Virus record (IMG/VR): IMGVR_UViG_3300045988_125232
Coordinates: 1-28,227 of that record
Direction: 5' to 3' (one strand)
Source: a virus
Taxonomy: Duplodnaviria > Heunggongvirae > Uroviricota > Caudoviricetes
Length of the DNA stretch: 28,227 nt
This document shows positions 3,199 through 28,227 of the stretch, in pieces. The notes beneath the pieces are model-generated. The model did not search any database. It was not told the origin of the DNA and saw only the letters and a list, made by a program, of their open reading frames with translations. The translations under genes and the position numbers were made by a program. Within the stretch, counting starts at the first letter, position 1. Every line of letters starts with the position of its first letter.

Positions 3199-3283
3199 AC
3201 TCAATTGAAAGCGCGTTCCGGAGGTTTTGGACTTAACGAACTGGCACTTAATGACAAGGGACAGAACGCGCTTTCAGTTGAGT
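3199..3283. repeat. Long imperfect inverted repeat (20-bp arms, about 45-bp spacer)
   Basis: ACTCAATTGAAAGCGCGTTC and GAACGCGCTTTCAGTTGAGT are reverse complements with one mismatch, in the non-coding gap between the HD gene and the moron. Confidence 0.5.
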
Positions 3284-3424
3284 AAAAAGGTGGCTATTCA
3301 TCAGAACATTGTCGCCTTCATTAGGTTTATCTGTTGAAGATCTGTAAGCCGCTTATAAATAAGTAGATATAAGATATTAGGAAAAGAAGAAGGACGTTAT
3401 AGTTTTATTTGTGATGTGCAAAGT

Positions 3425-3455
3425 ATATTTGAATAAAACCCGCCCAGCGGGTTCT
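3425..3455 (-). terminator. Rho-independent terminator downstream of the 198-aa moron gene
   Basis: GC-rich hairpin (AACCCGC...GCGGGTT) followed on the minus strand by a U-rich tract, just past the stop codon at 3464. Confidence 0.5.
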
Positions 3456-3463
3456 AAAGTGTT

Positions 3464-4060
3464 TTAATGATTGTCGTAATAATTAATTGGCTCATCATTT
3501 TTTTGGTCTGGCATAGTTATGGACCACTTTATATTCTTTAGGCTGTTATGTTTTTTATTGACCTTAAGCTCTCTCTTTGCTTCAGAGATAATATCGTCTA
3601 GTAATACTTTTAATTTATCAAGTCTTGACTTGTGGGCATCTATCAACTCTATACTATCAAACTCCCATTGTATAAATAGATTTTCTTCATTTTCAATGAA
3701 TGAACGGATTTTATCCCCACACTCTTCTGTTAAGAATAATGAAGATAGCTCACCTATTCTACTGAGTTTTTCAAGCTCATTAGAGAAAGATTTGCTAAGG
3801 ATTTCATTTTCTTCTTTTGATTTGTAACTAAAGTAGGTTGGGAATTGTGAAGCGTGATGTAACTCATGTTTATACCAATAGTCAGCTGTGTTTTTTAGAA
3901 GATAAACACAGTCAACTAATTGCGTATACAAATCTATTCTTTTGTCCCACCATTTTTCTTTATAATAACGGCCGAGTGCATATCGCGCAGTTAAGTAAGC
4001 TGCGATTGAGCCTGTAACAAGTCCGATAATTACCTTTGATATAAGGTCATGCCAATCCAT
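3464..4060 (-). CDS. Membrane-anchored protein of unknown function (moron; candidate lysogen-expressed exclusion or abortive-infection factor)
   Basis: 198-aa ORF with one N-terminal hydrophobic helix (VIIGLVTGSIAAYLTA), then a charged, Lys/Glu-rich helical body. Visibly AT-rich compared with flanking phage genes, with its own AT-rich upstream region and its own terminator. Confidence 0.7.
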   Translation of the reverse strand: MDWHDLISKVIIGLVTGSIAAYLTARYALGRYYKEKWWDKRIDLYTQLVDCVYLLKNTADYWYKHELHHASQFPTYFSYKSKEENEILSKSFSNELEKLSRIGELSSLFLTEECGDKIRSFIENEENLFIQWEFDSIELIDAHKSRLDKLKVLLDDIISEAKRELKVNKKHNSLKNIKWSITMPDQKNDEPINYYDNH

Positions 4061-4511
4061 TTTTATTTTTCCTACATTATGTTATATAATTGTTCATATC
4101 ATACAATTGTTGAGTATAGATGTCTCGTTATTCATCAACATTTACTCCTGTTAAATTAGGGGGAGTATGTATTAAAAATATTCATCTGGGTCGTCTAAAT
4201 ATTTTTGATAAACTAATAGCAATAACACTATCAATATTGCCTGCCCTCACGTCGTTCTTGCTCTCGCGCGATTTTTAACTAAACACTAGCAGGATTTATC
4301 ATGGTGCTACGCTACATTTACTTGTAGGGAGCTAAACAGATCATTGACGCTGAAAATATTCAAATTGTTAAAGAGCGAAGCGTCCTATGGGCGTTTTGTT
4401 GCTAACGAATCATCTTGGACTTCATATGCCCCAGGCGGCTACTTCGTGGACGTCCTGCCTGTTTGTTGTTTCTCTTGGGTACATTATGTATCTCAAAGGT
4501 ACATTGTCAAG

Positions 4512-4549: not shown

Positions 4550-5224
4550 TTAGGCTTTGATTTTGTATCTTCTTGGTTTTCCTGAGAAAATCACTGTACC
4601 AATTATAGAGCAATTACCGTTGATCTTAATGTAAGGCTCAGGCCAGTTTGGGTTTAACGCTTTGAGATAACGCTGTGTCCCATCTTCTATCAACCTTTTG
4701 AAGGTGGTTTCACCTGTATCGTGCATCAATGCAATAACGTCGTCACCGTGGCAGGCAGGTACTTCAGGATCGACAAAAATCATGTCTCCCGGGCGGTACT
4801 CATCAATCATTGAATCACCTATCACCCGCAAGATATAAGTCATTTCCCCACAGGGGACAGGGCAGGGATACGTTTCTGCTGTGCTCAAATCAACCTCAGA
4901 ATATCCAACTTCTTTCCATGCTCCGGCCTGTACCCATGATATGACAGGGACTAATGTGATTTGTTTATTAGTGATTGAAACATCAGGTTTTTTTGTGATG
5001 TTCGTTGTCTGGTGTTCTTGATCGAGCCATCCGACAGGCAGGTCGAAACATTTTTCGATGTGTCGTGCCATGCTGTCACCGATATTTTTAGTAGCACCAT
5101 CTCCCATAAACCTGCTGGTCTGGGTTGGCTCGCGATCAATCATAGTGGCAAAGGAAGAATTCCCGCCAACACCATCTCTCAGTTTTCTGGCGTTAGACCG
5201 CCGGATGTCATGGATTGTTTTCAT
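4550..5224 (-). CDS. cI: CI-type prophage repressor (HTH plus S24 LexA-like autopeptidase domain)
   Basis: 224-aa ORF. The C-terminal domain carries the Ser/Lys dyad context (VIGDSM ... FKRL) and its end (LNPNWPEPYIKINGNCSIIGTVI) resembles P22 C2 / lambda CI. Divergently arranged against the cro-like gene. Confidence 0.9.
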   Translation of the reverse strand: MKTIHDIRRSNARKLRDGVGGNSSFATMIDREPTQTSRFMGDGATKNIGDSMARHIEKCFDLPVGWLDQEHQTTNITKKPDVSITNKQITLVPVISWVQAGAWKEVGYSEVDLSTAETYPCPVPCGEMTYILRVIGDSMIDEYRPGDMIFVDPEVPACHGDDVIALMHDTGETTFKRLIEDGTQRYLKALNPNWPEPYIKINGNCSIIGTVIFSGKPRRYKIKA

Positions 5225-11082: not shown

Positions 11083-11835
11083 ATGAACCTTGAAGCCTTA
11101 CCGAAATATTACTCCCCGAAATCTCCAAAACTGAGCGATGACGCACCGGCGACAGGCTCTGGTGGTTTAACGATTACGGATGTGATGGCTGCGCAGGGGA
11201 TGGTGCAGTCGAAAGCACCGCTTGGGTTTGCCTTATTCCTGGCAAAAGTTGGTGTTCAGGATCCTCAGTTTGCGATTGAAGGTCTGCTCAATTACGCGAT
11301 GGCACTGGATAACCCGACATTGAATAAATTGAGTGAAGAAACCCGGCTACAGATCATTCCTTACCTTGTGAATTTTGCCTTTGCTGATTATTCCAGGTCT
11401 GCGGCAAGTAAGGCTCGCTGTGAGCATTGTGCTGGTACTGGATTTCATAATGTATTGCGCGAGGTGGTGAAACACTCCAGAAGCGGGGAATCTGTTATCA
11501 AGGAAGAGTGGGTGAAGGAACTATGTCAGCATTGTCATGGTAAGGGAGAAGTCAGCACAGCGTGCAGAGGGTGTAAGGGTAAAGGTATTGTCCTGGATGA
11601 AAAAAGGACCCGGCTTCATGGCACGCCTGTTTATAAGATTTGTGGGCGTTGCAATGGAAACCGGTTTAGCCGTTTACCAACTACACTGGCACGACGTCAT
11701 GTCCAGAAGCTGGTTCCAGACCTGACTGATTATCAGTGGTACAAAGGATATGCAGACGTAATTGATAAACTAGTAACAAAGTGCTGGCAGGAAGAAGCAT
11801 ATGCTGAAACGCAATTGAGAAAGGTGACGAGATAA
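11083..11835 (+). CDS. Q: Late-gene antitermination protein Q
   Basis: 250-aa ORF with cysteine clusters (CEHCAGTG, CQHCHGKG, CRGCKGKG, CGRCNG) typical of Q-family zinc-binding antiterminators; followed by a promoter and terminator, then the lysis genes. Confidence 0.8.
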   Translation: MNLEALPKYYSPKSPKLSDDAPATGSGGLTITDVMAAQGMVQSKAPLGFALFLAKVGVQDPQFAIEGLLNYAMALDNPTLNKLSEETRLQIIPYLVNFAFADYSRSAASKARCEHCAGTGFHNVLREVVKHSRSGESVIKEEWVKELCQHCHGKGEVSTACRGCKGKGIVLDEKRTRLHGTPVYKICGRCNGNRFSRLPTTLARRHVQKLVPDLTDYQWYKGYADVIDKLVTKCWQEEAYAETQLRKVTR

Positions 11836-11968: not shown

Positions 11969-12020
11969 ACTTGTACTGAAACACATTATATAACCTCATA
12001 TCAGTTAAAAAGGAGGTTGT

Positions 12021-12356
12021 ATGATTAATGCCGTTGAGTACAGATTACCGTTAGGAAATATCTCTCCAGAGAATCTTGACGCGTTGTCAGAGCTTATCGT
12101 TAAGCATTCCGATAAATTTAATAACTATGTACTTAGTTCTATTTCTGATGATGATATTCGATATTCTTACGATTACTACAATTTTGAAATCACAGAGATA
12201 GATGAATATGGGTTTCACTTTATAGCACCATATAGCTATTATGAAGGATGCGTTGACAATAACTTCTCAGGAGAGGTTGAAGGTTATGCAGAATACGAAA
12301 TCATTGATAATGAATTAGTCTTCTCTCTTGAGGAACTACCTTGGGATGTAAAATAA
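12021..12356 (+). CDS. Highly acidic small protein of unknown function (moron downstream of Q)
   Basis: 111-aa ORF with a strong AAGGAGG ribosome-binding site. AT-rich, bracketed by the upstream terminator and its own downstream terminator; Asp/Glu residues far outnumber basic ones. Confidence 0.7.
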   Translation: MINAVEYRLPLGNISPENLDALSELIVKHSDKFNNYVLSSISDDDIRYSYDYYNFEITEIDEYGFHFIAPYSYYEGCVDNNFSGEVEGYAEYEIIDNELVFSLEELPWDVK

Positions 12357-12367
12357 ATATCAATAAT

Positions 12368-12398
12368 AAAGGCCGTAACGAACGGCCTTTATTATTAT
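12368..12398. terminator. Bidirectional-looking rho-independent terminator
   Basis: Hairpin AAAGGCCGT-AACGA-ACGGCCTTT flanked by A-run and T-run. Confidence 0.6.
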
Positions 12399-12507
12399 AA
12401 AATCATCAATGCCTGATGAATTAGAATGTAATTTTCGAATTAATAATAAATCAACATATCATTTCACGCTCCGATTTTCTGTCGGAGGCGAAACTGCGGC
12501 TATTCAT

Positions 12508-22391: not shown

Positions 22392-22562
22392 ATGTTTGTG
22401 AAACCTGTTAAAGGGCGGTCAGTGCCTGACCCTGCCCGCAGCGACCTTTTGCCCGCCGAAGGGCGAAATGTTGACGAGAACAACTACTGGCTGCGCCGTG
22501 AAGCAGCGGGTGATATCCGGCGCGTGAATAAAAAGGTGAACACCGATGACGATAAGCTTTAA
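22392..22562 (+). CDS. Small conserved Mu-like tail-module protein (DUF2635-like, 56 aa)
   Basis: ATG at 22392; the product (MFVKPVKGRSVPDPARSDLLPAEGRNVDENNYWLRREAAGDIRRV…) resembles the small protein that precedes the sheath gene in Mu-type tails; overlaps the sheath start. Below the 60-aa cutoff of the ORF track. Confidence 0.45.
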   Translation: MFVKPVKGRSVPDPARSDLLPAEGRNVDENNYWLRREAAGDIRRVNKKVNTDDDKL

Positions 22563-24042
22563 CACCATTCCGTCGAATACGCTGGTTCCGCTGTTTTATG
22601 CGGAAATGGATAACCAGGCGGCGAATACTGCACAGGACAGCGGAGCATCGCTGCTGATTGGTCATGCCAGTAACGGTGCAGAGATTGTTGCCAACAGTCT
22701 GGTGCTGATGCCGTCGGCAGACTATGCACGCCAGATTTGTGGTGCGGGAAGTCAGCTGGCGCGTATGGTCGAGGCTTATCGCCAGACCGACCCGTTTGGT
22801 GAGCTGTATGTGATTGCCGTTCCGGAAGCCACAGGCGCGGCGGCAACGGTTACGCTGACGGTGACCGGGGAAGCAACCGAAAGCGGCACGGTGAATGTCT
22901 ATGTGGGACGTACCCGCGTGCAGGCTCCGGTGACCAACGGCGATAACGTCACGACGATTGCCAGCAGTATCAAAGATGCCATCAATGCCGTTCCGGCCCT
23001 GCCGTTTACGGCTTCATCTTCGGCAGGTGTGGTCACACTGACCGCGCGTCATAAGGGGCTTTGCGGGAATGAAATTCCTGTCAGCCTCAATTACTACGGC
23101 TTTGGTGGGGGCGAAGTGCTGCCAGCGGGCGTACAGATTGCCGTGGCGACGGGTACCGCCGGAACGGGTGCTCCGGTTCTCACCGGCGCGGTGGCTGCAA
23201 TGGCGGATGAGCCGTTTGATTATATCGGCCTGCCGTTCAACGACACGGCCTCCGTTAACACGCTGGTGACCGAGATGAACGATACCAGCGGTCGCTGGAG
23301 CTATGCGCGTCAGCTGTATGGTCATGTGTATACGGCAAAGATCGGCACGCTGTCAGAACTGGTGACCGCAGGTGACCAGTTTAACCAGCAGCACATTACC
23401 CTGGCGGGGTACGAAAAAGAGACCCAGACGCCTGCCGACGAACTGGCGGCAAGCCGTACCGCCCGCGCAGCGGTGTTTATTCGCAACGATCCGGCACGTC
23501 CCACGCAGACCGGTGAGCTGGTGGGTATGCTGCCTGCGCCGAAGGGGAAACGGTTCACGATGACCGAACAACAGACCCTGCTGTCTCATGGCGTGGCAAC
23601 GGCGTATGTCGAAAGCGGGGTACTGCGCATTCAGCGTGATGTCACCACGTACAGGAAAAACGCTTACGGGGTTGCGGATAACAGCTACCTCGACAGTGAG
23701 ACACTGCATACCAGCGCGTATGTACTGCGCAAACTGAAATCCGTCATTACCAGTAAGTACGGGCGTCACAAGCTTGCCAGTGACGGTACCCGCTTTGGTC
23801 CCGGTCAGGCGATTGTCACCCCGGCGGTGATCAAAGGGGAACTGCTGGCAACCTACCGTCAGCTTGAGCGTGCGGGGATCGTGGAAAACTACGAACTGTT
23901 TAAGCAGTACCTGGTTGTGGAGCGTGATGCCAGCGATCCGAACCGCCTGAACACGCTGTTCCCGCCTGACTATGTTAACCAGTTGCGTGTCTTTGCCGTG
24001 GTTAACCAGTTCCGTCTTCAGTATTCAGAGGAGTCTGCATAA
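22546..24042 (+). CDS. Contractile tail sheath protein (Mu-type)
   Basis: 498 aa, followed by tube, frameshifted chaperone and tape-measure genes in canonical myovirus order. Confidence 0.9.
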   Translation: MTISFNTIPSNTLVPLFYAEMDNQAANTAQDSGASLLIGHASNGAEIVANSLVLMPSADYARQICGAGSQLARMVEAYRQTDPFGELYVIAVPEATGAAATVTLTVTGEATESGTVNVYVGRTRVQAPVTNGDNVTTIASSIKDAINAVPALPFTASSSAGVVTLTARHKGLCGNEIPVSLNYYGFGGGEVLPAGVQIAVATGTAGTGAPVLTGAVAAMADEPFDYIGLPFNDTASVNTLVTEMNDTSGRWSYARQLYGHVYTAKIGTLSELVTAGDQFNQQHITLAGYEKETQTPADELAASRTARAAVFIRNDPARPTQTGELVGMLPAPKGKRFTMTEQQTLLSHGVATAYVESGVLRIQRDVTTYRKNAYGVADNSYLDSETLHTSAYVLRKLKSVITSKYGRHKLASDGTRFGPGQAIVTPAVIKGELLATYRQLERAGIVENYELFKQYLVVERDASDPNRLNTLFPPDYVNQLRVFAVVNQFRLQYSEESA

Positions 24043-24667: not shown

Positions 24668-24816
24668 CGGCTGAATACCTCACTGATCGCTTCTTTGACT
24701 GCGCCAGTTACTGGCGCATTAATCCTTTCGAATTGCTGAATATGCCGATCAGTGAAATTCCCTTGCTGGTCAGTCAGGCAAACAGGATAGAGCAGGAGAA
24801 ACGCACACATGGCTGA
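24634..24816 (+). CDS. Tail assembly chaperone, -1 frameshift extension
   Basis: Overlapping ORF in the -1 frame running from the slippery heptamer (about 24649-24655) to just inside the tape-measure start, matching the conserved programmed frameshift between tube and tape-measure genes. Confidence 0.55.
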   Translation: MACGRFFPPGLTAEYLTDRFFDCASYWRINPFELLNMPISEIPLLVSQANRIEQEKRTHG

Positions 24817-26641
24817 ATTTGAGCTTAAGGCGTTGATCACCGGTGTCGACAGACTTTCTCCCGCGCTGTCGAAAATGCAAAAGAAAATCCGGGGATTTAA
24901 ACGCCAGGCGGAAGAAGCATCACAGGGTGGGCTGGCGCTTGGTGGCGGACTGGCAGCGGGTCTGACGCTTTCCCTGAAATCTTATGCCGATCAGGAAAAC
25001 GCCGCCACCGGGCTGAAAGTCGCCATGATGGATGCGAACGGCGAGGTCGGAAAGAGCTTTCAGGACATCAATAAACTGGCTATTGGCCTGGGTAACCAGC
25101 TACCCGGTACAACGGCTGATTTCCAGAACATGATGCAGATGCTGGTGCGTCAGGGGATCCCGGCAGAAAATATTCTTGGCGGTGTGGGTAAAGCGACAGC
25201 TTATCTTGCGGTACAACTGAAAAAAACACCGGAAGCGGCTGCTGAGTTTGCTGCAAAGATGCAGGATGCTACCGGAACGGCGTCAGAAGACATGATGGGG
25301 CTGTTCGACACTATCCAGAAGGCGTTTTATCTGGGCGTTGACGATACCAACATGTTGTCCTTCTTCACTAAAACCAGTTCTGTTCTGAAGATGGTGAACA
25401 AGGACGGTCTTCAGGCTGCACAGAGCCTTGCCCCCATCAGCGTCATGATGGATCAGATGGGGATGAACGGGGAGTCGGCAGGTAATGCCCTGCGAAAAGT
25501 TATCCAGTCCGGATTAAGCGTTAAGAAAATCAGGGACGTTAATAAAGTTATGGCCCGCCAGAAACTCGGGGTACAGCTCGATTTTACTGACGGCAAAGGG
25601 AGTTTTGGCGGTCTTGATAACATGTTCAGGCAACTGGCAAAGCTGCGAAAACTGACCGACGTTAAGCGAACCGGTGTACTTAAGGCAATATTTGGTGATG
25701 ATGCCGAAACCCTTCAGGTGGTCAATGCTCTGATCGATAAAGGAAAGGATGGTTACGATCAGATCCAGCAGAAGATGAATAAACAGGCCAGCCTGAATAA
25801 ACGTGTTCAGGCCCAGCTTGGTACGCTGTCCAACCTGTGGGAGGCAATGACGGGGACCGCAACTAACGGCCTTGCGGCTATTGGCGGCGCATTTTCTGGT
25901 GACGTCAAAAATATCACGCAATGGCTGGGGGAGTTAGGGGAAAAATTCACGAAGTTTGCGGATGAAAATCCCCGGGTTATTCGCGGCGTCGTCGGGCTTG
26001 CTGCCGGTCTTGCGATTCTGAAACTGGGATTGATGGGCGTGGGCAGTGCCATCAGTATCGTCAGCAGGATCATGTCGATGACGCCGATTGGCATGATTGC
26101 GACGGCGATTGCCCTGGCTGCGGGATTAATTATCACTAACTGGGATGTTGTCGGACCTTATTTTAAGAAGCTCTGGGAAACCATTAGTCCTTATTTTGAG
26201 GCTGGCTGGGAACTTCTGAAGAAGGTTTTTGCCTGGTCGCCGCTGGGGATGGTGATCAATAACTGGGGACCGGTTGTTAAGTGGTTTCAGGATATGTGGG
26301 ATAAGCTGAAGCCGATTATTGAATGGTTTACCGACAGTTCCGGTGACACGGTCGATGCCATTAACTCGGCGCAGTGGGGCGCGGGTGCTTATGATGCTTA
26401 TGGGACGGGAATACCGCCACGGGGATACACTCCTTATCCGGAGGTGGATCCGGCTCAGGCAAACAACGCCTCCGGTGCCACAGGTCCGAATCCCTTCATG
26501 ATTAATAAAGCTACCGCGCCAAAAGTTGATGGTGAGATCAAGGTATCATTTATAAATATGCCACCAGGTATGCGGGTTACGGAAACACGCTCCAGTGGCA
26601 TTGATATAAATCACGATGTTGGCTATACCCGATTTTGGTAG
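24809..26641 (+). CDS. Tail tape measure protein
   Basis: 610 aa, helical, with Gly/Ala-rich hydrophobic segments in the C-terminal third; position after the chaperone pair. Confidence 0.9.
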   Translation: MAEFELKALITGVDRLSPALSKMQKKIRGFKRQAEEASQGGLALGGGLAAGLTLSLKSYADQENAATGLKVAMMDANGEVGKSFQDINKLAIGLGNQLPGTTADFQNMMQMLVRQGIPAENILGGVGKATAYLAVQLKKTPEAAAEFAAKMQDATGTASEDMMGLFDTIQKAFYLGVDDTNMLSFFTKTSSVLKMVNKDGLQAAQSLAPISVMMDQMGMNGESAGNALRKVIQSGLSVKKIRDVNKVMARQKLGVQLDFTDGKGSFGGLDNMFRQLAKLRKLTDVKRTGVLKAIFGDDAETLQVVNALIDKGKDGYDQIQQKMNKQASLNKRVQAQLGTLSNLWEAMTGTATNGLAAIGGAFSGDVKNITQWLGELGEKFTKFADENPRVIRGVVGLAAGLAILKLGLMGVGSAISIVSRIMSMTPIGMIATAIALAAGLIITNWDVVGPYFKKLWETISPYFEAGWELLKKVFAWSPLGMVINNWGPVVKWFQDMWDKLKPIIEWFTDSSGDTVDAINSAQWGAGAYDAYGTGIPPRGYTPYPEVDPAQANNASGATGPNPFMINKATAPKVDGEIKVSFINMPPGMRVTETRSSGIDINHDVGYTRFW

Positions 26642-26669
26642 CCAGGATTCCCCTCACAGGTATTGCTGG

Positions 26670-26697
26670 TTGTAAGTCATAAATAGAGTGATAGAAT
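26670..26697 (+). promoter_or_regulatory. Candidate sigma70 promoter for the tail-region moron
   Basis: TTGTAA, 16-bp spacer, TAGAAT in the AT-rich gap after the tape-measure stop. Confidence 0.35.
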
Positions 26698-26732
26698 TAA
26701 TGCACATTTAGAAAAATGTTAATAGGCGAAAA

Positions 26733-27263
26733 ATGAAAGGCTATATCACAGCAAGTGTAATTCTTGGAGCAGCGGCTATTTTTTCATCTCTCATAATCTC
26801 TGGCAACATCTCCTTTAAAGATGAACATATTATTCAGTTATCTGGAGGAGCCATAAAACTTGGTGATGTTTATAAAGAAAATAAATTGATAAGTGCAAAG
26901 ATTATTTTTCCAGATAATCAGGGTGAACAGATTCTTGTTGTCGACGGCAATCCTGAAAACTTTAAGGAGGATTTTCAGGAGAAATTAAATAAAGTAATAA
27001 AAACTTTAAATGCGTCAAAGAAAAAAGATGAAGAGAAAGTTAGCCTGGATAATTTAAGTGTTATTGAAGAGTCTAAACTAGAGCTCGTTTCTGCGGTGCG
27101 TTACTCTGCTCAGTATGTTCCTATGTTTACTCTGACGCTGGACAAAAAAGAAATTACCATGCCTAAAAATACGGTAATATTTCCATTTGCCAGCGATGAA
27201 ACAGCTAAGTATTTAAATGAACAACAGCAAAAGTATAAAGATTCGTTGTTTCTGACTCGCTAA
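26733..27263 (+). CDS. Signal-anchored/exported protein of unknown function (moron inside the tail gene cluster)
   Basis: 176-aa ORF with an N-terminal hydrophobic signal or anchor (ITASVILGAAAIFSSLIISG) and a Lys/Glu-rich body. Strongly AT-rich against GC-rich tail genes, with its own promoter-like elements and terminator. Confidence 0.75.
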   Translation: MKGYITASVILGAAAIFSSLIISGNISFKDEHIIQLSGGAIKLGDVYKENKLISAKIIFPDNQGEQILVVDGNPENFKEDFQEKLNKVIKTLNASKKKDEEKVSLDNLSVIEESKLELVSAVRYSAQYVPMFTLTLDKKEITMPKNTVIFPFASDETAKYLNEQQQKYKDSLFLTR

Positions 27264-27281
27264 TTAATAAAATTCATTACA

Positions 27282-27312
27282 AGGCCACCTTCTAATAGGT
27301 GGCTTTTTAATT
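27282..27312 (+). terminator. Rho-independent terminator after the tail-region moron
   Basis: Hairpin GGCCACCT-TCTAAT-AGGTGGC followed by TTTTTAATTTT. Confidence 0.6.
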
Positions 27313-27324
27313 TTCGGAGTATAT

Positions 27325-28227
27325 ATGACGTGGAAAGACAGGCTTCAGGACGCGTCATTTCGCGGCGTGCCGTTTAAGGTTGAAGAAGAAAGTGCGGGAA
27401 CCGGTCGCCGTGTGGAAACACATGAATACCCGAACCGCGACAAACCCTATACCGAAGACCTGGGGAAAATCACTTTTCGCCCGTCCATCACGGATTATGT
27501 GGTGGGAGATGACTGCTTTGACCAGCGCGATCGCCTGATTGAAGCGCTGAATAAACCAGGTCCCGGCACGCTTGTCCACCCGACATATGGTGAGCTGAAA
27601 GTCTGTGTTGACGGGGAAGTTCGGGTCAGCACATCGAAAAGTGAAGGGCGTATTGTCCGCTTTGACCTGAAGTTTGTCGAAGCAGGAGAACTCTCTTACC
27701 CCACATCAGGTGCGGCGACGGCGCAGACGCTGATGTCATCCTGTTCTGCACTGGATGACTGCATCAGTGACAGCTTCAGCGGTTTCAGTATCGATGGTGT
27801 GGCGGATTTCGTGCAGAACGACGTTATCGGTAATGCCAGCATAATGCTGGGGTATGTTTCTGATGCGATGAAAGTGGTGGATTCTGCCGTATCGGATGCC
27901 GCCAGGCTGTTGCAGGGGGATATCTCGGTACTTCTGCCGCCGCCATCGTCAGGCAAAAATTTCGTTGAGCAGGTGCAGAAAATGTGGCGTACCGGGAAAC
28001 GCCTTTATGGTAACGCCAGCGACCTGGTCACCATGATCAAAACGCTTTCTGGTGTCAGCCTCGGCAGCGATTTGCAACCGCGCGGCGTCTGGAAAACGGA
28101 CAGTAAAACCACCGCCACGGCGACGCAGCAGCGTAACGTGGTTGCCAGCACCCTTCGTGCGACCGCAATCAGCGAAGCGGCGTATGCCGTTACCCGATTG
28201 CCTGCGCCAACAACTTCCGCGGTGATG
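27325..28227 (+). CDS. DNA circulation protein (Mu gpN-like), N-terminal part; continues beyond the window
   Basis: ATG at 27325 after a GGAG ribosome-binding site; open to the window end. N-terminus MTWKDRLQDASFRGVPFKVEEESAGTGRRVETHEYPNRDKPYTEDLG matches the conserved N-domain of Mu-type DNA circulation proteins as I recall it. Not in the ORF track because no stop is reached. Confidence 0.8.
   Translation, partial: MTWKDRLQDASFRGVPFKVEEESAGTGRRVETHEYPNRDKPYTEDLGKITFRPSITDYVVGDDCFDQRDRLIEALNKPGPGTLVHPTYGELKVCVDGEVRVSTSKSEGRIVRFDLKFVEAGELSYPTSGAATAQTLMSSCSALDDCISDSFSGFSIDGVADFVQNDVIGNASIMLGYVSDAMKVVDSAVSDAARLLQGDISVLLPPPSSGKNFVEQVQKMWRTGKRLYGNASDLVTMIKTLSGVSLGSDLQPRGVWKTDSKTTATATQQRNVVASTLRATAISEAAYAVTRLPAPTTSAVM

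What the first reader, a model, noticed from the sequence alone, without database searches (positions are those of the whole stretch)
26642..27320. Promoter-gene-terminator moron between tape measure and baseplate genes encoding an exported/anchored protein
Between the tape-measure stop (26641) and the DNA-circulation gene (27325) sits a strongly AT-rich cassette with a sigma70-like promoter, a 176-aa ORF with an N-terminal signal or anchor, and a hairpin terminator. Mu-type tail modules normally have these genes adjacent, so this is an insertion. A known precedent for membrane proteins inserted among tail genes is the HK97 gp15 superinfection-exclusion moron, which blocks DNA entry. The protein is Lys/Glu-rich with no motif I recognise, so it could equally be a host-interaction or fitness factor.
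Basis: partly seen in the sequence, partly recalled or inferred. Interest (0 to 1): 0.7.

Follow-up and report, generated by a model that had tools for sequence, protein, structure and literature searches.

The report
Membrane-protein moron in prophage tail operon
An optional, AT-rich add-on gene sits between two tail genes of an SfV-type E. coli prophage and encodes an uncharacterised inner-membrane protein that faces the periplasm; it is most likely a barrier against incoming phages, but no function has been shown.

Summary
A 673-bp cassette (26642-27314, about 34% GC against about 53% in the flanks) lies between the tape-measure stop and the DNA-circulation gene. It carries a 176-aa ORF (26733-27263) and a hairpin terminator (27281-27306). 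The sigma-70-like promoter (26670-26697) exists but is not above chance.

Related phages (SfV, SfI, SfII, UTI89 prophage) have only a 45-63-nt spacer here. The slot is a polymorphic cargo hotspot. Across 5426 E. coli genomes this cassette occurs in 179, and three unrelated AT-rich cargos occur in 85, 79 and 28.

The protein is a type II bitopic membrane protein: a TM helix (residues 2-23) and an alpha/beta periplasmic domain (AF2 pLDDT 91.5). It has no relative in the PDB and no Pfam, NCBIfam or PADLOC match; it matches PHROG 5485 (unknown function). It evolves under purifying selection (dN/dS 0.08-0.24).

Homologues occupy the same slot in four other named genera. They also occur in another phage's baseplate module, in integrative islands and as chromosomal orphans, so it is not a tail component. 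It is unrelated to HK97 gp15.

The best guess, superinfection exclusion at the inner membrane, is inferred only. Verdict: an ordinary kind of element (tail-operon moron) carrying an uncharacterised protein family.

The parts
24809..26641 (+). Tail tape measure gene (left flank of the slot)
   Evidence: 610-aa ORF; PF10145 PhageMin_Tail, E 1e-26. Homology between slot states ends at its stop codon.
26642..27314 (+). The cassette: 673 bp that replace the 45-63-nt spacer of empty-site relatives
   Evidence: Alignments with SfV, SfII, the UTI89 prophage and other slot states. GC 0.32-0.37. At least 99% identical in 180 of 181 E. coli records. No flanking repeats.
26670..26697 (+). Sigma-70-like promoter candidate: TTGTAA (26670-26675), 16-nt spacer, TAGAAT (26692-26697), TG at 26689-26690
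   Evidence: 9 of 12 matches with TG. The count is not above the shuffled expectation. An above-threshold equivalent occurs only in L009 among three orthologous loci scanned. -10-like hexamers fall in the same alignment columns in some orthologues. Activity is inferred, not shown.
26724..26726 (+). Weak Shine-Dalgarno (AGG) 6 nt upstream of the ATG
   Evidence: Read directly from the sequence.
26733..27263 (+). 176-aa ORF (WP_000679479.1; PHROG 5485), an uncharacterised bitopic membrane protein
   Evidence: dN/dS among orthologues 0.08-0.24. 78 family representatives at 50% clustering.
26736..26801 (+). Codons 2-23: N-terminal transmembrane anchor (N-in)
   Evidence: AF2 helix 2-23. Across the family the uncharged stretch has median 23 aa, and the N-flank averages +2.0 charge against -0.5 for the C-flank in 51 of 58 sequences. 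The window protein has no Cys, so no lipobox.
26805..27260 (+). Codons 25-176: periplasmic alpha/beta domain. Conserved residues include G39, L43, G44, Y47, E49, N93, Y124 and L134
27281..27306 (+). Intrinsic-terminator-like hairpin followed by a T-run
   Evidence: A hairpin with a different stem sequence sits at the same position in the Leclercia, Leclercia-like and Edwardsiella loci. The empty site also has one.
27325..28227 (+). DNA circulation (Mu N/gp43-like) gene, right flank; it runs off the window
   Evidence: PF07157 DNA_circ_N, E 7e-33. Homology between slot states resumes at CGGAGT (27315), its ribosome-binding region.

Best explanation
Shown: this is a horizontally mobile cargo cassette (moron) in a polymorphic slot between the tape-measure and DNA-circulation genes of an SfV-type, e14-site prophage. 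It encodes a 176-aa type II bitopic inner-membrane protein. The N-terminus is in the cytoplasm, there is one TM helix (residues 2-23), and a roughly 150-aa alpha/beta domain sits in the periplasm. The protein belongs to a small gammaproteobacterial family of unknown function.

Inferred mechanism: in the lysogen the gene is transcribed from its own weak sigma-70 promoter, and the downstream hairpin stops read-through into the baseplate genes. During lytic growth the Q-antiterminated late transcript reads through both. The membrane-tethered periplasmic domain most likely acts as a superinfection-exclusion factor. It would interfere, just above the inner membrane, with the tail-tip, tape-measure or ejected-protein conduit of an incoming phage, so that DNA does not cross the membrane and outer-membrane receptors are left untouched.

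The anatomy, topology, mobility and non-structural status are shown. Lysogenic expression and the exclusion function are inferred.
For: Cassette and slot:
- Empty site in SfV, SfI, SfII and the UTI89 prophage.
- Four unrelated AT-rich cargos share the slot in E. coli: 179, 85, 79 and 28 of 5426 genomes.
- Three of the four cargos carry an N-terminal signal or anchor. One lies on the opposite strand, so it needs its own promoter.

Mobility:
- The cassette has median 99.6% identity (minimum 99.1%), against flank medians of 97.0-98.5% (minimum 94.8%), in 55 IMG/VR loci.

Real protein:
- dN/dS 0.08-0.24.
- Confident AF2 model, pLDDT 91.5.

Topology:
-.

Not structural:
- Absent from most related prophages. 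About 65% of a systematic sample of the slot is empty.
- Homologues occur in Pseudomonas integrative islands next to an Mrr-type nuclease and recombinases, and as chromosomal orphans.

Consistent with a conflict or exclusion role:
- It recurs in tail or baseplate modules of different phage types.
- It evolves faster than neighbouring structural genes: 53-55% against 75-88% aa identity.
- Distribution is sporadic.
- Known precedents exist for inner-membrane proteins that block injection: HK97 gp15 beside the tape measure, and P22 SieA (PMC3594210; PMC10883804).
- A Q antiterminator is present at 11083-11835, which would explain how terminators are tolerated inside the late operon.
Against: - The promoter is not above chance and not clearly conserved. 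The gene is co-oriented with the tail operon, so late co-transcription alone cannot be excluded.
- Chromosomal orphan copies in Enterobacter and Kluyvera-like genomes, with no phage nearby, hint at a host function.
- Some cassette-bearing genomes hold a second SfV-like prophage (places_in_record = 2). This argues weakly against strict exclusion of its own kind.
- There are no expression or phenotype data, and no paper mentions the protein.
Confidence: 0.4

Rival explanations
1. Host-envelope fitness or lysogenic-conversion factor unrelated to phage exclusion. Examples would be a periplasmic stress, adhesion, colonisation or envelope-remodelling protein, as Lom and Bor are for lambda.
For: Chromosomal orphan homologues occur beside copCD-yebY and in Enterobacter asburiae with no phage genes nearby. 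The Enterobacter cluster has 102 member sequences. Purifying selection is seen across genera. There is no similarity to any defence protein. Morons are known to encode such factors (PMC3594210).
Against: The gene recurs specifically inside tail or baseplate modules of several phage types, and on small integrative islands next to a nuclease. It is inner-membrane anchored, not surface exposed. No domain suggests an enzymatic or adhesive role.
Confidence: 0.25
2. Lytic-cycle accessory made from the late tail transcript. Examples would be a protein that modifies the infected cell envelope, prevents progeny from re-injecting into infected cells or debris, or tunes lysis.
For: The gene has the same orientation as the tail operon in every phage context seen. 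There is no terminator between the tape-measure gene and this gene. The promoter evidence is weak.
Against: Most related phages lack it and are presumably viable, including the isolated phages SfV, SfI, SfII and SKA5. Homologues occur outside phages. The phage has a separate lysis cassette. The fold is an alpha/beta domain, not the coiled coil of an i-spanin, and there is no lipoprotein partner.
Confidence: 0.12
3. Periplasmic immunity or protection factor against envelope-acting toxins (colicins, T6SS or CDI effectors), carried as mobile-element cargo.
For: Small membrane-tethered periplasmic proteins are typical immunity proteins (general knowledge). The gene has a mobile, sporadic distribution. 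In one Pseudomonas island a secreted 180-aa protein is encoded immediately upstream.
Against: There is no conserved toxin partner. The upstream neighbour differs between islands (a 180-aa secreted protein in one, a 66-aa membrane peptide in the other), and in the prophage slot the cassette holds no second gene. No immunity-family match was found.
Confidence: 0.08
4. Structural or assembly component of the tail, or a non-functional spurious ORF in AT-rich junk DNA.
For: Its position is inside the tail module. It has no known domain.
Against: The slot is empty in SfV, SfI, SfII and the UTI89 prophage, and in about two thirds of a systematic sample. Alternative unrelated cargos occupy the same slot. 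Homologues occur outside phages. Against junk: dN/dS 0.08-0.24, a confident fold, and 78 family representatives.
Confidence: 0.03

Closest known systems
HK97 gp15 moron (YebO family), a superinfection-exclusion protein
   Same: Both are a gene plus terminator wedged between two tail genes next to the tape-measure gene of a temperate E. coli phage. Both are inner-membrane proteins and compositionally foreign cargo. Both have bacterial chromosomal homologues outside prophages (PMC3594210; here).
   Different: gp15 is 62 aa, with a TM helix plus a short tail, and belongs to the YebO family. This protein is 176 aa with a folded periplasmic domain of about 150 aa. There is no Pfam hit, and hhalign gives probability 0.2%. 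The slots differ (chaperone|TMP in HK97, TMP|DNA-circulation here) and so do the tail types (non-contractile in HK97, contractile Mu-like here). The function here is untested.
P22 SieA, an inner-membrane blocker of DNA injection
   Same: It is a prophage-encoded inner-membrane protein of similar size (162-164 aa). It blocks the trans-periplasmic DNA conduit rather than the receptor (PMC10883804). This is the mechanism proposed here.
   Different: SieA is predicted to have three TM helices and little periplasmic mass. This protein has one TM helix and a globular periplasmic domain. The genomic location is different. Sequence similarity was not tested directly.
Type II-anchored exclusion proteins: T4 Sp and lactococcal Sie2009-type proteins (recalled from general knowledge, not tested here)
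   Same: The architecture is the same: an N-terminal membrane anchor with the functional domain outside the cytoplasm, acting on the incoming tail or injection machinery.
   Different: No Pfam family of any kind matches this protein. The hosts and phage types differ.
PHROG 5485, and the 'Lipoprotein' of Pseudomonas phage ventosus (A0A2H4P829)
   Same: The protein matches PHROG 5485 over its full length, E 4e-108. The ventosus protein is the only significant viral fold match: Foldseek E 2.8e-6, TM 0.55/0.65. Both are phage-encoded and envelope-tethered.
   Different: Both are functionally uncharacterised. The ventosus protein is annotated as lipid-anchored, whereas this one has a TM helix and no Cys. 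They share 13% identity.
Rz-type i-spanin
   Same: It has type II topology: an N-terminal TM helix and a periplasmic C-terminal domain of about 150 aa.
   Different: i-Spanins are coiled-coil proteins, are paired with an o-spanin lipoprotein, and sit in the lysis cassette (general knowledge). Here the fold is beta-rich alpha/beta, there is no partner, the gene lies in the tail module, and it is optional. The prophage has a separate lysis cassette.

Membership tests
Moron (Juhala/Hendrix sense) | Inserted between two genes that are adjacent in related phage genomes | tested here: met
   SfV, SfI, SfII and the UTI89 prophage have a 45-63-nt spacer between the tape-measure and DNA-circulation genes.
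Moron (Juhala/Hendrix sense) | Base composition distinct from the surrounding phage genes | tested here: met
   0.343 GC against 0.529 in the flanks. The same contrast holds in every enterobacterial homologue context.
Moron (Juhala/Hendrix sense) | Own terminator downstream | tested here: met
   Hairpin plus T-run at 27281-27306. Structurally equivalent hairpins with different stems occur in three orthologous loci. Caveat: the empty slot also carries a hairpin.
Moron (Juhala/Hendrix sense) | Own promoter upstream | tested here: inconclusive
   TTGTAA-16-TGaTAGAAT at 26670-26697. However, the count equals the shuffled expectation, and an above-threshold equivalent is found only in L009 among three orthologous loci scanned.
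Moron (Juhala/Hendrix sense) | Expressed from the repressed prophage | not testable with these tools
   This needs lysogen RNA-seq, 5' RACE or a reporter fusion.
HK97 gp15 / YebO family | Sequence membership (YebO-like N-terminal region) | tested here: not met
   No Pfam family at E up to 1. hhalign of the family profile against gp15 gives probability 0.2%. The sizes are 62 aa and 176 aa.
P22 SieA | Polytopic inner-membrane protein with three TM helices | tested here: not met
   A single N-terminal TM helix, against three in SieA (PMC10883804).
Lipoprotein exclusion factors (Cor, Llp, Ltp type) | Lipobox with an invariant Cys after the signal sequence | tested here: not met
   The window protein has no Cys at all.
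Rz-type i-spanin | Periplasmic coiled-coil domain, an o-spanin partner, and a location in the lysis cassette | tested here: not met
   The fold is alpha/beta with six strands. There is no conserved neighbour. The lysis cassette is elsewhere in the prophage.
Tail structural or assembly protein of SfV/Mu-like tails | Conserved presence in related tail modules, and restriction to phages | tested here: not met
   The slot is empty in about 65% of a systematic sample, and alternative cargos occur there. Homologues occur in non-phage islands and as chromosomal orphans.
Known anti-phage defence systems (PADLOC-DB v2) | Match to a defence-protein model | tested here: not met
   No hit at E up to 1. 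The alternative slot cargos also gave none.
PHROG 5485 | Full-length profile match | tested here: met
   E 3.8e-108, residues 1-176 of 176. The family is annotated 'unknown function'.
Superinfection-exclusion protein (functional class) | Blocks infection after adsorption when expressed alone | not testable with these tools
   This requires plaquing-efficiency, adsorption and DNA-entry assays.

The most novel reading that the evidence does not exclude
The family is a previously unrecognised class of membrane-tethered periplasmic injection blockers directed at contractile-tail (Mu/SfV-like) phages. The slot between the tape-measure and DNA-circulation genes would then be a dedicated hotspot where these prophages exchange envelope-level exclusion genes: this family, the SKA5-type secreted protein and the anchored OB-fold protein. 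That would give several new exclusion proteins from one locus, with a fold that has no solved relative.
Probability: 0.25. Interest if true: 0.65.

Novelty: new member of a known kind. Interest (0 to 1): 0.45.

Why it matters
Tail-operon morons are a known way for temperate phages to carry lysogen-benefit genes, so the element type is ordinary. Three things are useful here.

1. A defined, polymorphic cargo slot exists in a very common group of E. coli prophages (matched in 1093 of 5426 complete genomes). It has at least four interchangeable cassettes, three of them envelope-directed.

2. An uncharacterised family of about 175-aa bitopic membrane proteins has a confident predicted fold that matches nothing in the PDB. 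It recurs in the tail or baseplate modules of different phage types, in integrative islands and as chromosomal orphans.

3. Few exclusion proteins are known for contractile-tail temperate phages of enterobacteria. If this protein blocks injection, escape mutants could identify which tail-tip protein forms the inner-membrane conduit in Mu-like tails.

The experiments are simple: express one gene and plaque a phage panel.

Tried and rejected
- **Sequence families.** Pfam, NCBIfam and PADLOC gave nothing. The PDB sequence search gave only noise, E at least 0.5.
- **HK97 gp15 homology.** Rejected.
- **i-Spanin reading.** Rejected on fold, lack of a partner and location.
- **Lipoprotein reading.** Rejected because the protein has no Cys.
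- **Paralog or partner in the Pseudomonas islands.** Rejected: the upstream genes are unrelated to the family and differ between islands.
- **Transposon or site-specific insertion signature.** No meaningful flanking repeats.
- **RNA element in the cassette or window.** No Rfam match.
- **Sequenced phages with a homologue.** None among 50,697 records by tblastn.
- **Literature.** Nothing on the accession or on this slot.
- **The search for related loci.** It failed with the broad alignments for lack of a conserved stretch. The single genome-collection scan returned only one Edwardsiella locus.
- **First allele tally.** It was contaminated by a frameshifted copy and was redone.

Full report
**1. 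The observation**

The window's right end carries a Mu-like contractile-tail module. It runs sheath (22546-24042), tube, chaperone, tape measure (24809-26641, PF10145), then a DNA-circulation gene starting at 27325 (PF07157, E 7e-33). Between the last two lies a 176-aa ATG ORF at 26733-27263.

GC falls to 0.32-0.37 across the interval, against 0.50-0.57 on either side. The pattern scan finds TTGTAA-16-TAGAAT preceded by TG at 26670-26697, and a 10-bp-stem hairpin with a T-run at 27281-27306. The numbers of such sites equal those in shuffled sequence, so on their own they are not evidence.

**2. It is an insertion into a polymorphic slot**

The region belongs to an SfV/SfI/SfII-type prophage integrated at the icd (e14) site. 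In SfV, SfI, SfII and the UTI89 prophage the tape-measure and DNA-circulation genes are separated by only 45-63 nt, and that spacer already contains a terminator hairpin. Homology between genomes stops at the tape-measure stop codon and resumes at CGGAGT (27315), the ribosome-binding region of the next gene. So 673 bp (26642-27314) replace the short spacer. No flanking repeats suggest transposition or site-specific insertion.

A flank-only query matched both flanks in 845 of 5426 complete E. coli genomes. A systematic sample of 46 such places broke down as follows:

| Slot state | Places in sample |
|---|---|
| Empty | 30 |
| This cassette | 9 |
| Secreted 164/170-aa protein, as in phage SKA5 | 2 |
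| Membrane-anchored OB-fold protein (PF12869) on the opposite strand | 3 |
| Cytoplasmic bPH_1 protein (PF08000) | 1 |
| 5'-deleted remnant of this cassette | 1 |

Direct counts across the 5426 genomes are 179 (this cassette), 85 (SKA5 type), 79 (OB-fold) and 28 (PH). All the cargos are AT-rich, 0.31-0.39 GC.

**3. The cassette moves between phage backbones**

In 55 IMG/VR loci that carry it, the cassette has median 99.6% identity to the window (minimum 99.1%). The adjacent sheath, tape-measure and circulation segments have medians of 97.0-98.5% (minimum 94.8%). In E. coli genomes it is at least 99% identical in 180 of 181 records. The simplest reading is recent spread by homologous recombination in the conserved flanks.

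**4. The protein**

It is WP_000679479.1, annotated 'hypothetical'. It matches PHROG 5485 (unknown function) over its full length. It matches nothing in Pfam, NCBIfam, PADLOC or PDB sequences.

A profile search of 1.84 billion cluster representatives found 78 relatives, nearly all 165-195 aa and aligned end to end. With a 58-sequence alignment, AlphaFold2 gives pLDDT 91.5 and pTM 0.76. The model has a helix at 2-23, a short linker, a beta-hairpin (33-42), strands 46-58 and 66-72, a helix at 74-93, strands 114-126 and 132-143, and a helix at 149-171.

Across the family the N-terminal uncharged stretch has a median of 23 residues, too long for a typical cleaved signal peptide. The N-flank averages +2.0 charge and the C-flank -0.5, in 51 of 58 sequences. 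The window protein has no Cys. This indicates an N-in/C-out bitopic inner-membrane protein with a periplasmic domain.

**5. Where the family lives**

- **Same slot.** Homologues of 38-55% identity occupy exactly the same slot (tape measure | gene | DNA_circ_N) in SfV-like prophages of Leclercia, Citrobacter, Mangrovibacter and Edwardsiella.
- **Faster evolution.** They are more diverged (53-55%) than the neighbouring sheath, tube and circulation proteins (75-88%).
- **Persistent AT-richness.** They remain AT-rich, 0.33-0.42 GC against 0.51-0.55 in the flanks.
- **Other phage settings.** One more distant member lies in a different contractile-tail prophage, between baseplate/hub-side genes and the spike (L108). 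Another lies in a Yersinia prophage (L103).
- **Non-phage settings.** Others lie in small Pseudomonas integrative islands beside a serine recombinase, an Mrr-type nuclease and a DUF5906 primase-like gene. Still others are chromosomal orphans next to copCD-yebY or in Enterobacter asburiae.
- **No partner.** No conserved partner gene exists.
- **Not in isolated phages.** No isolated, sequenced phage in the 50,697-record collection encodes a homologue.

This distribution rules out a tail structural role.

**6. Expression signals**

A hairpin terminator follows the gene in all four orthologous loci examined, each with a different stem sequence. The empty slot also has one, so the terminator may belong to the slot as much as to the cargo.

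The upstream spacers are 65-110 nt, AT-rich and poorly conserved. An above-threshold promoter match occurs only in the window and in L009, although -10-like hexamers fall in the same alignment columns in some other orthologues. The opposite-strand OB-fold cargo shows that cargo in this slot can be transcribed independently of the tail operon.

A Q-type antiterminator is encoded at 11083-11835. That would let late transcription read through the internal terminators. This last point is inference.

**7. Most likely mechanism**

I take the protein to be a lysogen-expressed, inner-membrane-tethered periplasmic factor that blocks genome delivery by incoming phages (confidence about 0.4). The reasons are:

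- its topology;
- its repeated placement next to tape-measure or baseplate genes in different phages;
- its co-location with other envelope-directed cargos;
- its presence on integrative islands beside a nuclease;
- its faster divergence and sporadic, horizontally spreading distribution;
- the precedents of HK97 gp15 and P22 SieA, inner-membrane proteins that block the DNA conduit rather than the receptor (PMC3594210; PMC10883804).

Against this, there is no homology to any known exclusion protein. Chromosomal orphans exist with no phage nearby. The promoter is unproven. Some cassette-bearing genomes hold a second SfV-like prophage.

The rivals are a host-envelope fitness factor (0.25), a late-expressed lytic accessory (0.12), toxin immunity (0.08), and a structural or junk reading (0.03).

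**8. Comparison with known systems**

In anatomy and position the cassette closely parallels the HK97 gp15 moron: a gene plus terminator beside the tape measure. It is not a member of that family. gp15 is 62 aa and YebO-like, and hhalign gives probability 0.2%. It is not SieA-like (one TM helix, not three), not a lipoprotein exclusion factor (no Cys), and not an i-spanin (alpha/beta fold, no partner, wrong location). Its architecture resembles type II-anchored exclusion proteins such as T4 Sp or lactococcal Sie2009. That resemblance is from my own knowledge and was not tested here.

**9. Verdict**

It is a new member of a known kind of element, a tail-operon moron. It carries an uncharacterised protein family with a fold not matched by any solved structure, and it sits in a well-defined cargo hotspot of a very common E. 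coli prophage group. Interest is moderate (0.45). The element type is ordinary, but the slot and the family are cheap, well-posed targets for exclusion assays.

Noticed in passing
window 3464-4060 (- strand); AT-rich block about 3200-4400: This is a second AT-rich island (GC 0.33-0.36). It holds a 198-aa ORF with an N-terminal hydrophobic segment (VIIGLVTGSIAAYLTARYAL). It lies between the integrase/early-left genes and the S24-type repressor (4550-5224), a classic position for lysogen-expressed exclusion or defence genes. There is no Pfam or PADLOC match.
   Followed up: partly
window 12021-12356 (+); AT-rich block 12001-12400: A 111-aa ORF in a 0.335-GC block lies just downstream of the Q antiterminator gene (11083-11835) and ahead of the region that corresponds to the lysis genes in strain AMSHJX01. 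There is no Pfam or PADLOC match.
   Followed up: partly
L001 (SfV) about 1846-1890; L003 (SfII) 1858-1896; L015 (UTI89) 604-663: The empty tape-measure/DNA-circulation spacer still contains an intrinsic-terminator hairpin (annotated as such in SfII) in the middle of the tail operon. Late transcription presumably depends on Q antitermination to pass it.
   Followed up: partly
L011 632-1078 (-), L010 632-1018 (-); L014 700-1194; L002 1922-2434; L012 656-1033: Three unrelated alternative cargos occupy the same slot. One is a TM-anchored tRNA_anti-like OB-fold protein on the opposite strand (79 genomes), with a truncated variant. One is a secreted 164/170-aa protein, also in phage SKA5 (85 genomes; PHROG 8976). 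One is a cytoplasmic bPH_1 protein (28 genomes). None matches PADLOC.
   Followed up: partly
L013 594-833; L085 6001-6529: Decayed alleles of the cassette exist. One is a deletion that removes the promoter region and about the first 100 codons, leaving a 79-aa remnant. Another is a copy one base longer that goes out of register with the window ORF, consistent with a frameshift. Several truncated protein clusters also turned up in the database.
   Followed up: partly
L005 8013-9808; L009 8012-9819: The Leclercia-type prophages carry two extra genes (503-507 aa and 94 aa, no Pfam hit) between the DNA-circulation gene and the baseplate hub gene. The annotated E. coli, Citrobacter and Mangrovibacter loci lack them. 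This may be a second cargo slot one gene downstream.
   Followed up: no
L005 4147-5931 compared with window 24809-26641: The Leclercia L005 tape-measure protein is only 36% identical to the window's, whereas sheath, tube and circulation proteins are 75-86% identical. L009's tape measure is 77% identical. This indicates mosaic replacement of the tape-measure gene right next to the cargo slot.
   Followed up: no
L096 1963-13541; L100 5935-14462: Distant family members ride on small Pseudomonas integrative islands. In L096 the island seems to split an FKBP-type gene: FKBP_C fragments lie at both ends, with a large serine recombinase inside. It also carries an Mrr-type nuclease and a small resolvase/invertase divergent from the cargo gene. 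L100 has a tyrosine integrase and a DUF5906 primase-like gene, which is satellite-like.
   Followed up: no
L104 5001-5540; L109 5001-5534: Chromosomal orphan homologues sit in the variable region just after copC-copD-yebY in Kluyvera and in a related metagenomic enterobacterium. They are again strongly AT-rich (0.32-0.39 GC).
   Followed up: no
and tables (e.g. NZ_CP030939.1, CX-series strains): Several genomes that carry the cassette show two places matching the slot flanks, meaning a second SfV-like prophage in the same cell. This bears on whether the cargo excludes its own phage type, but only a partial sample was visible.
   Followed up: no
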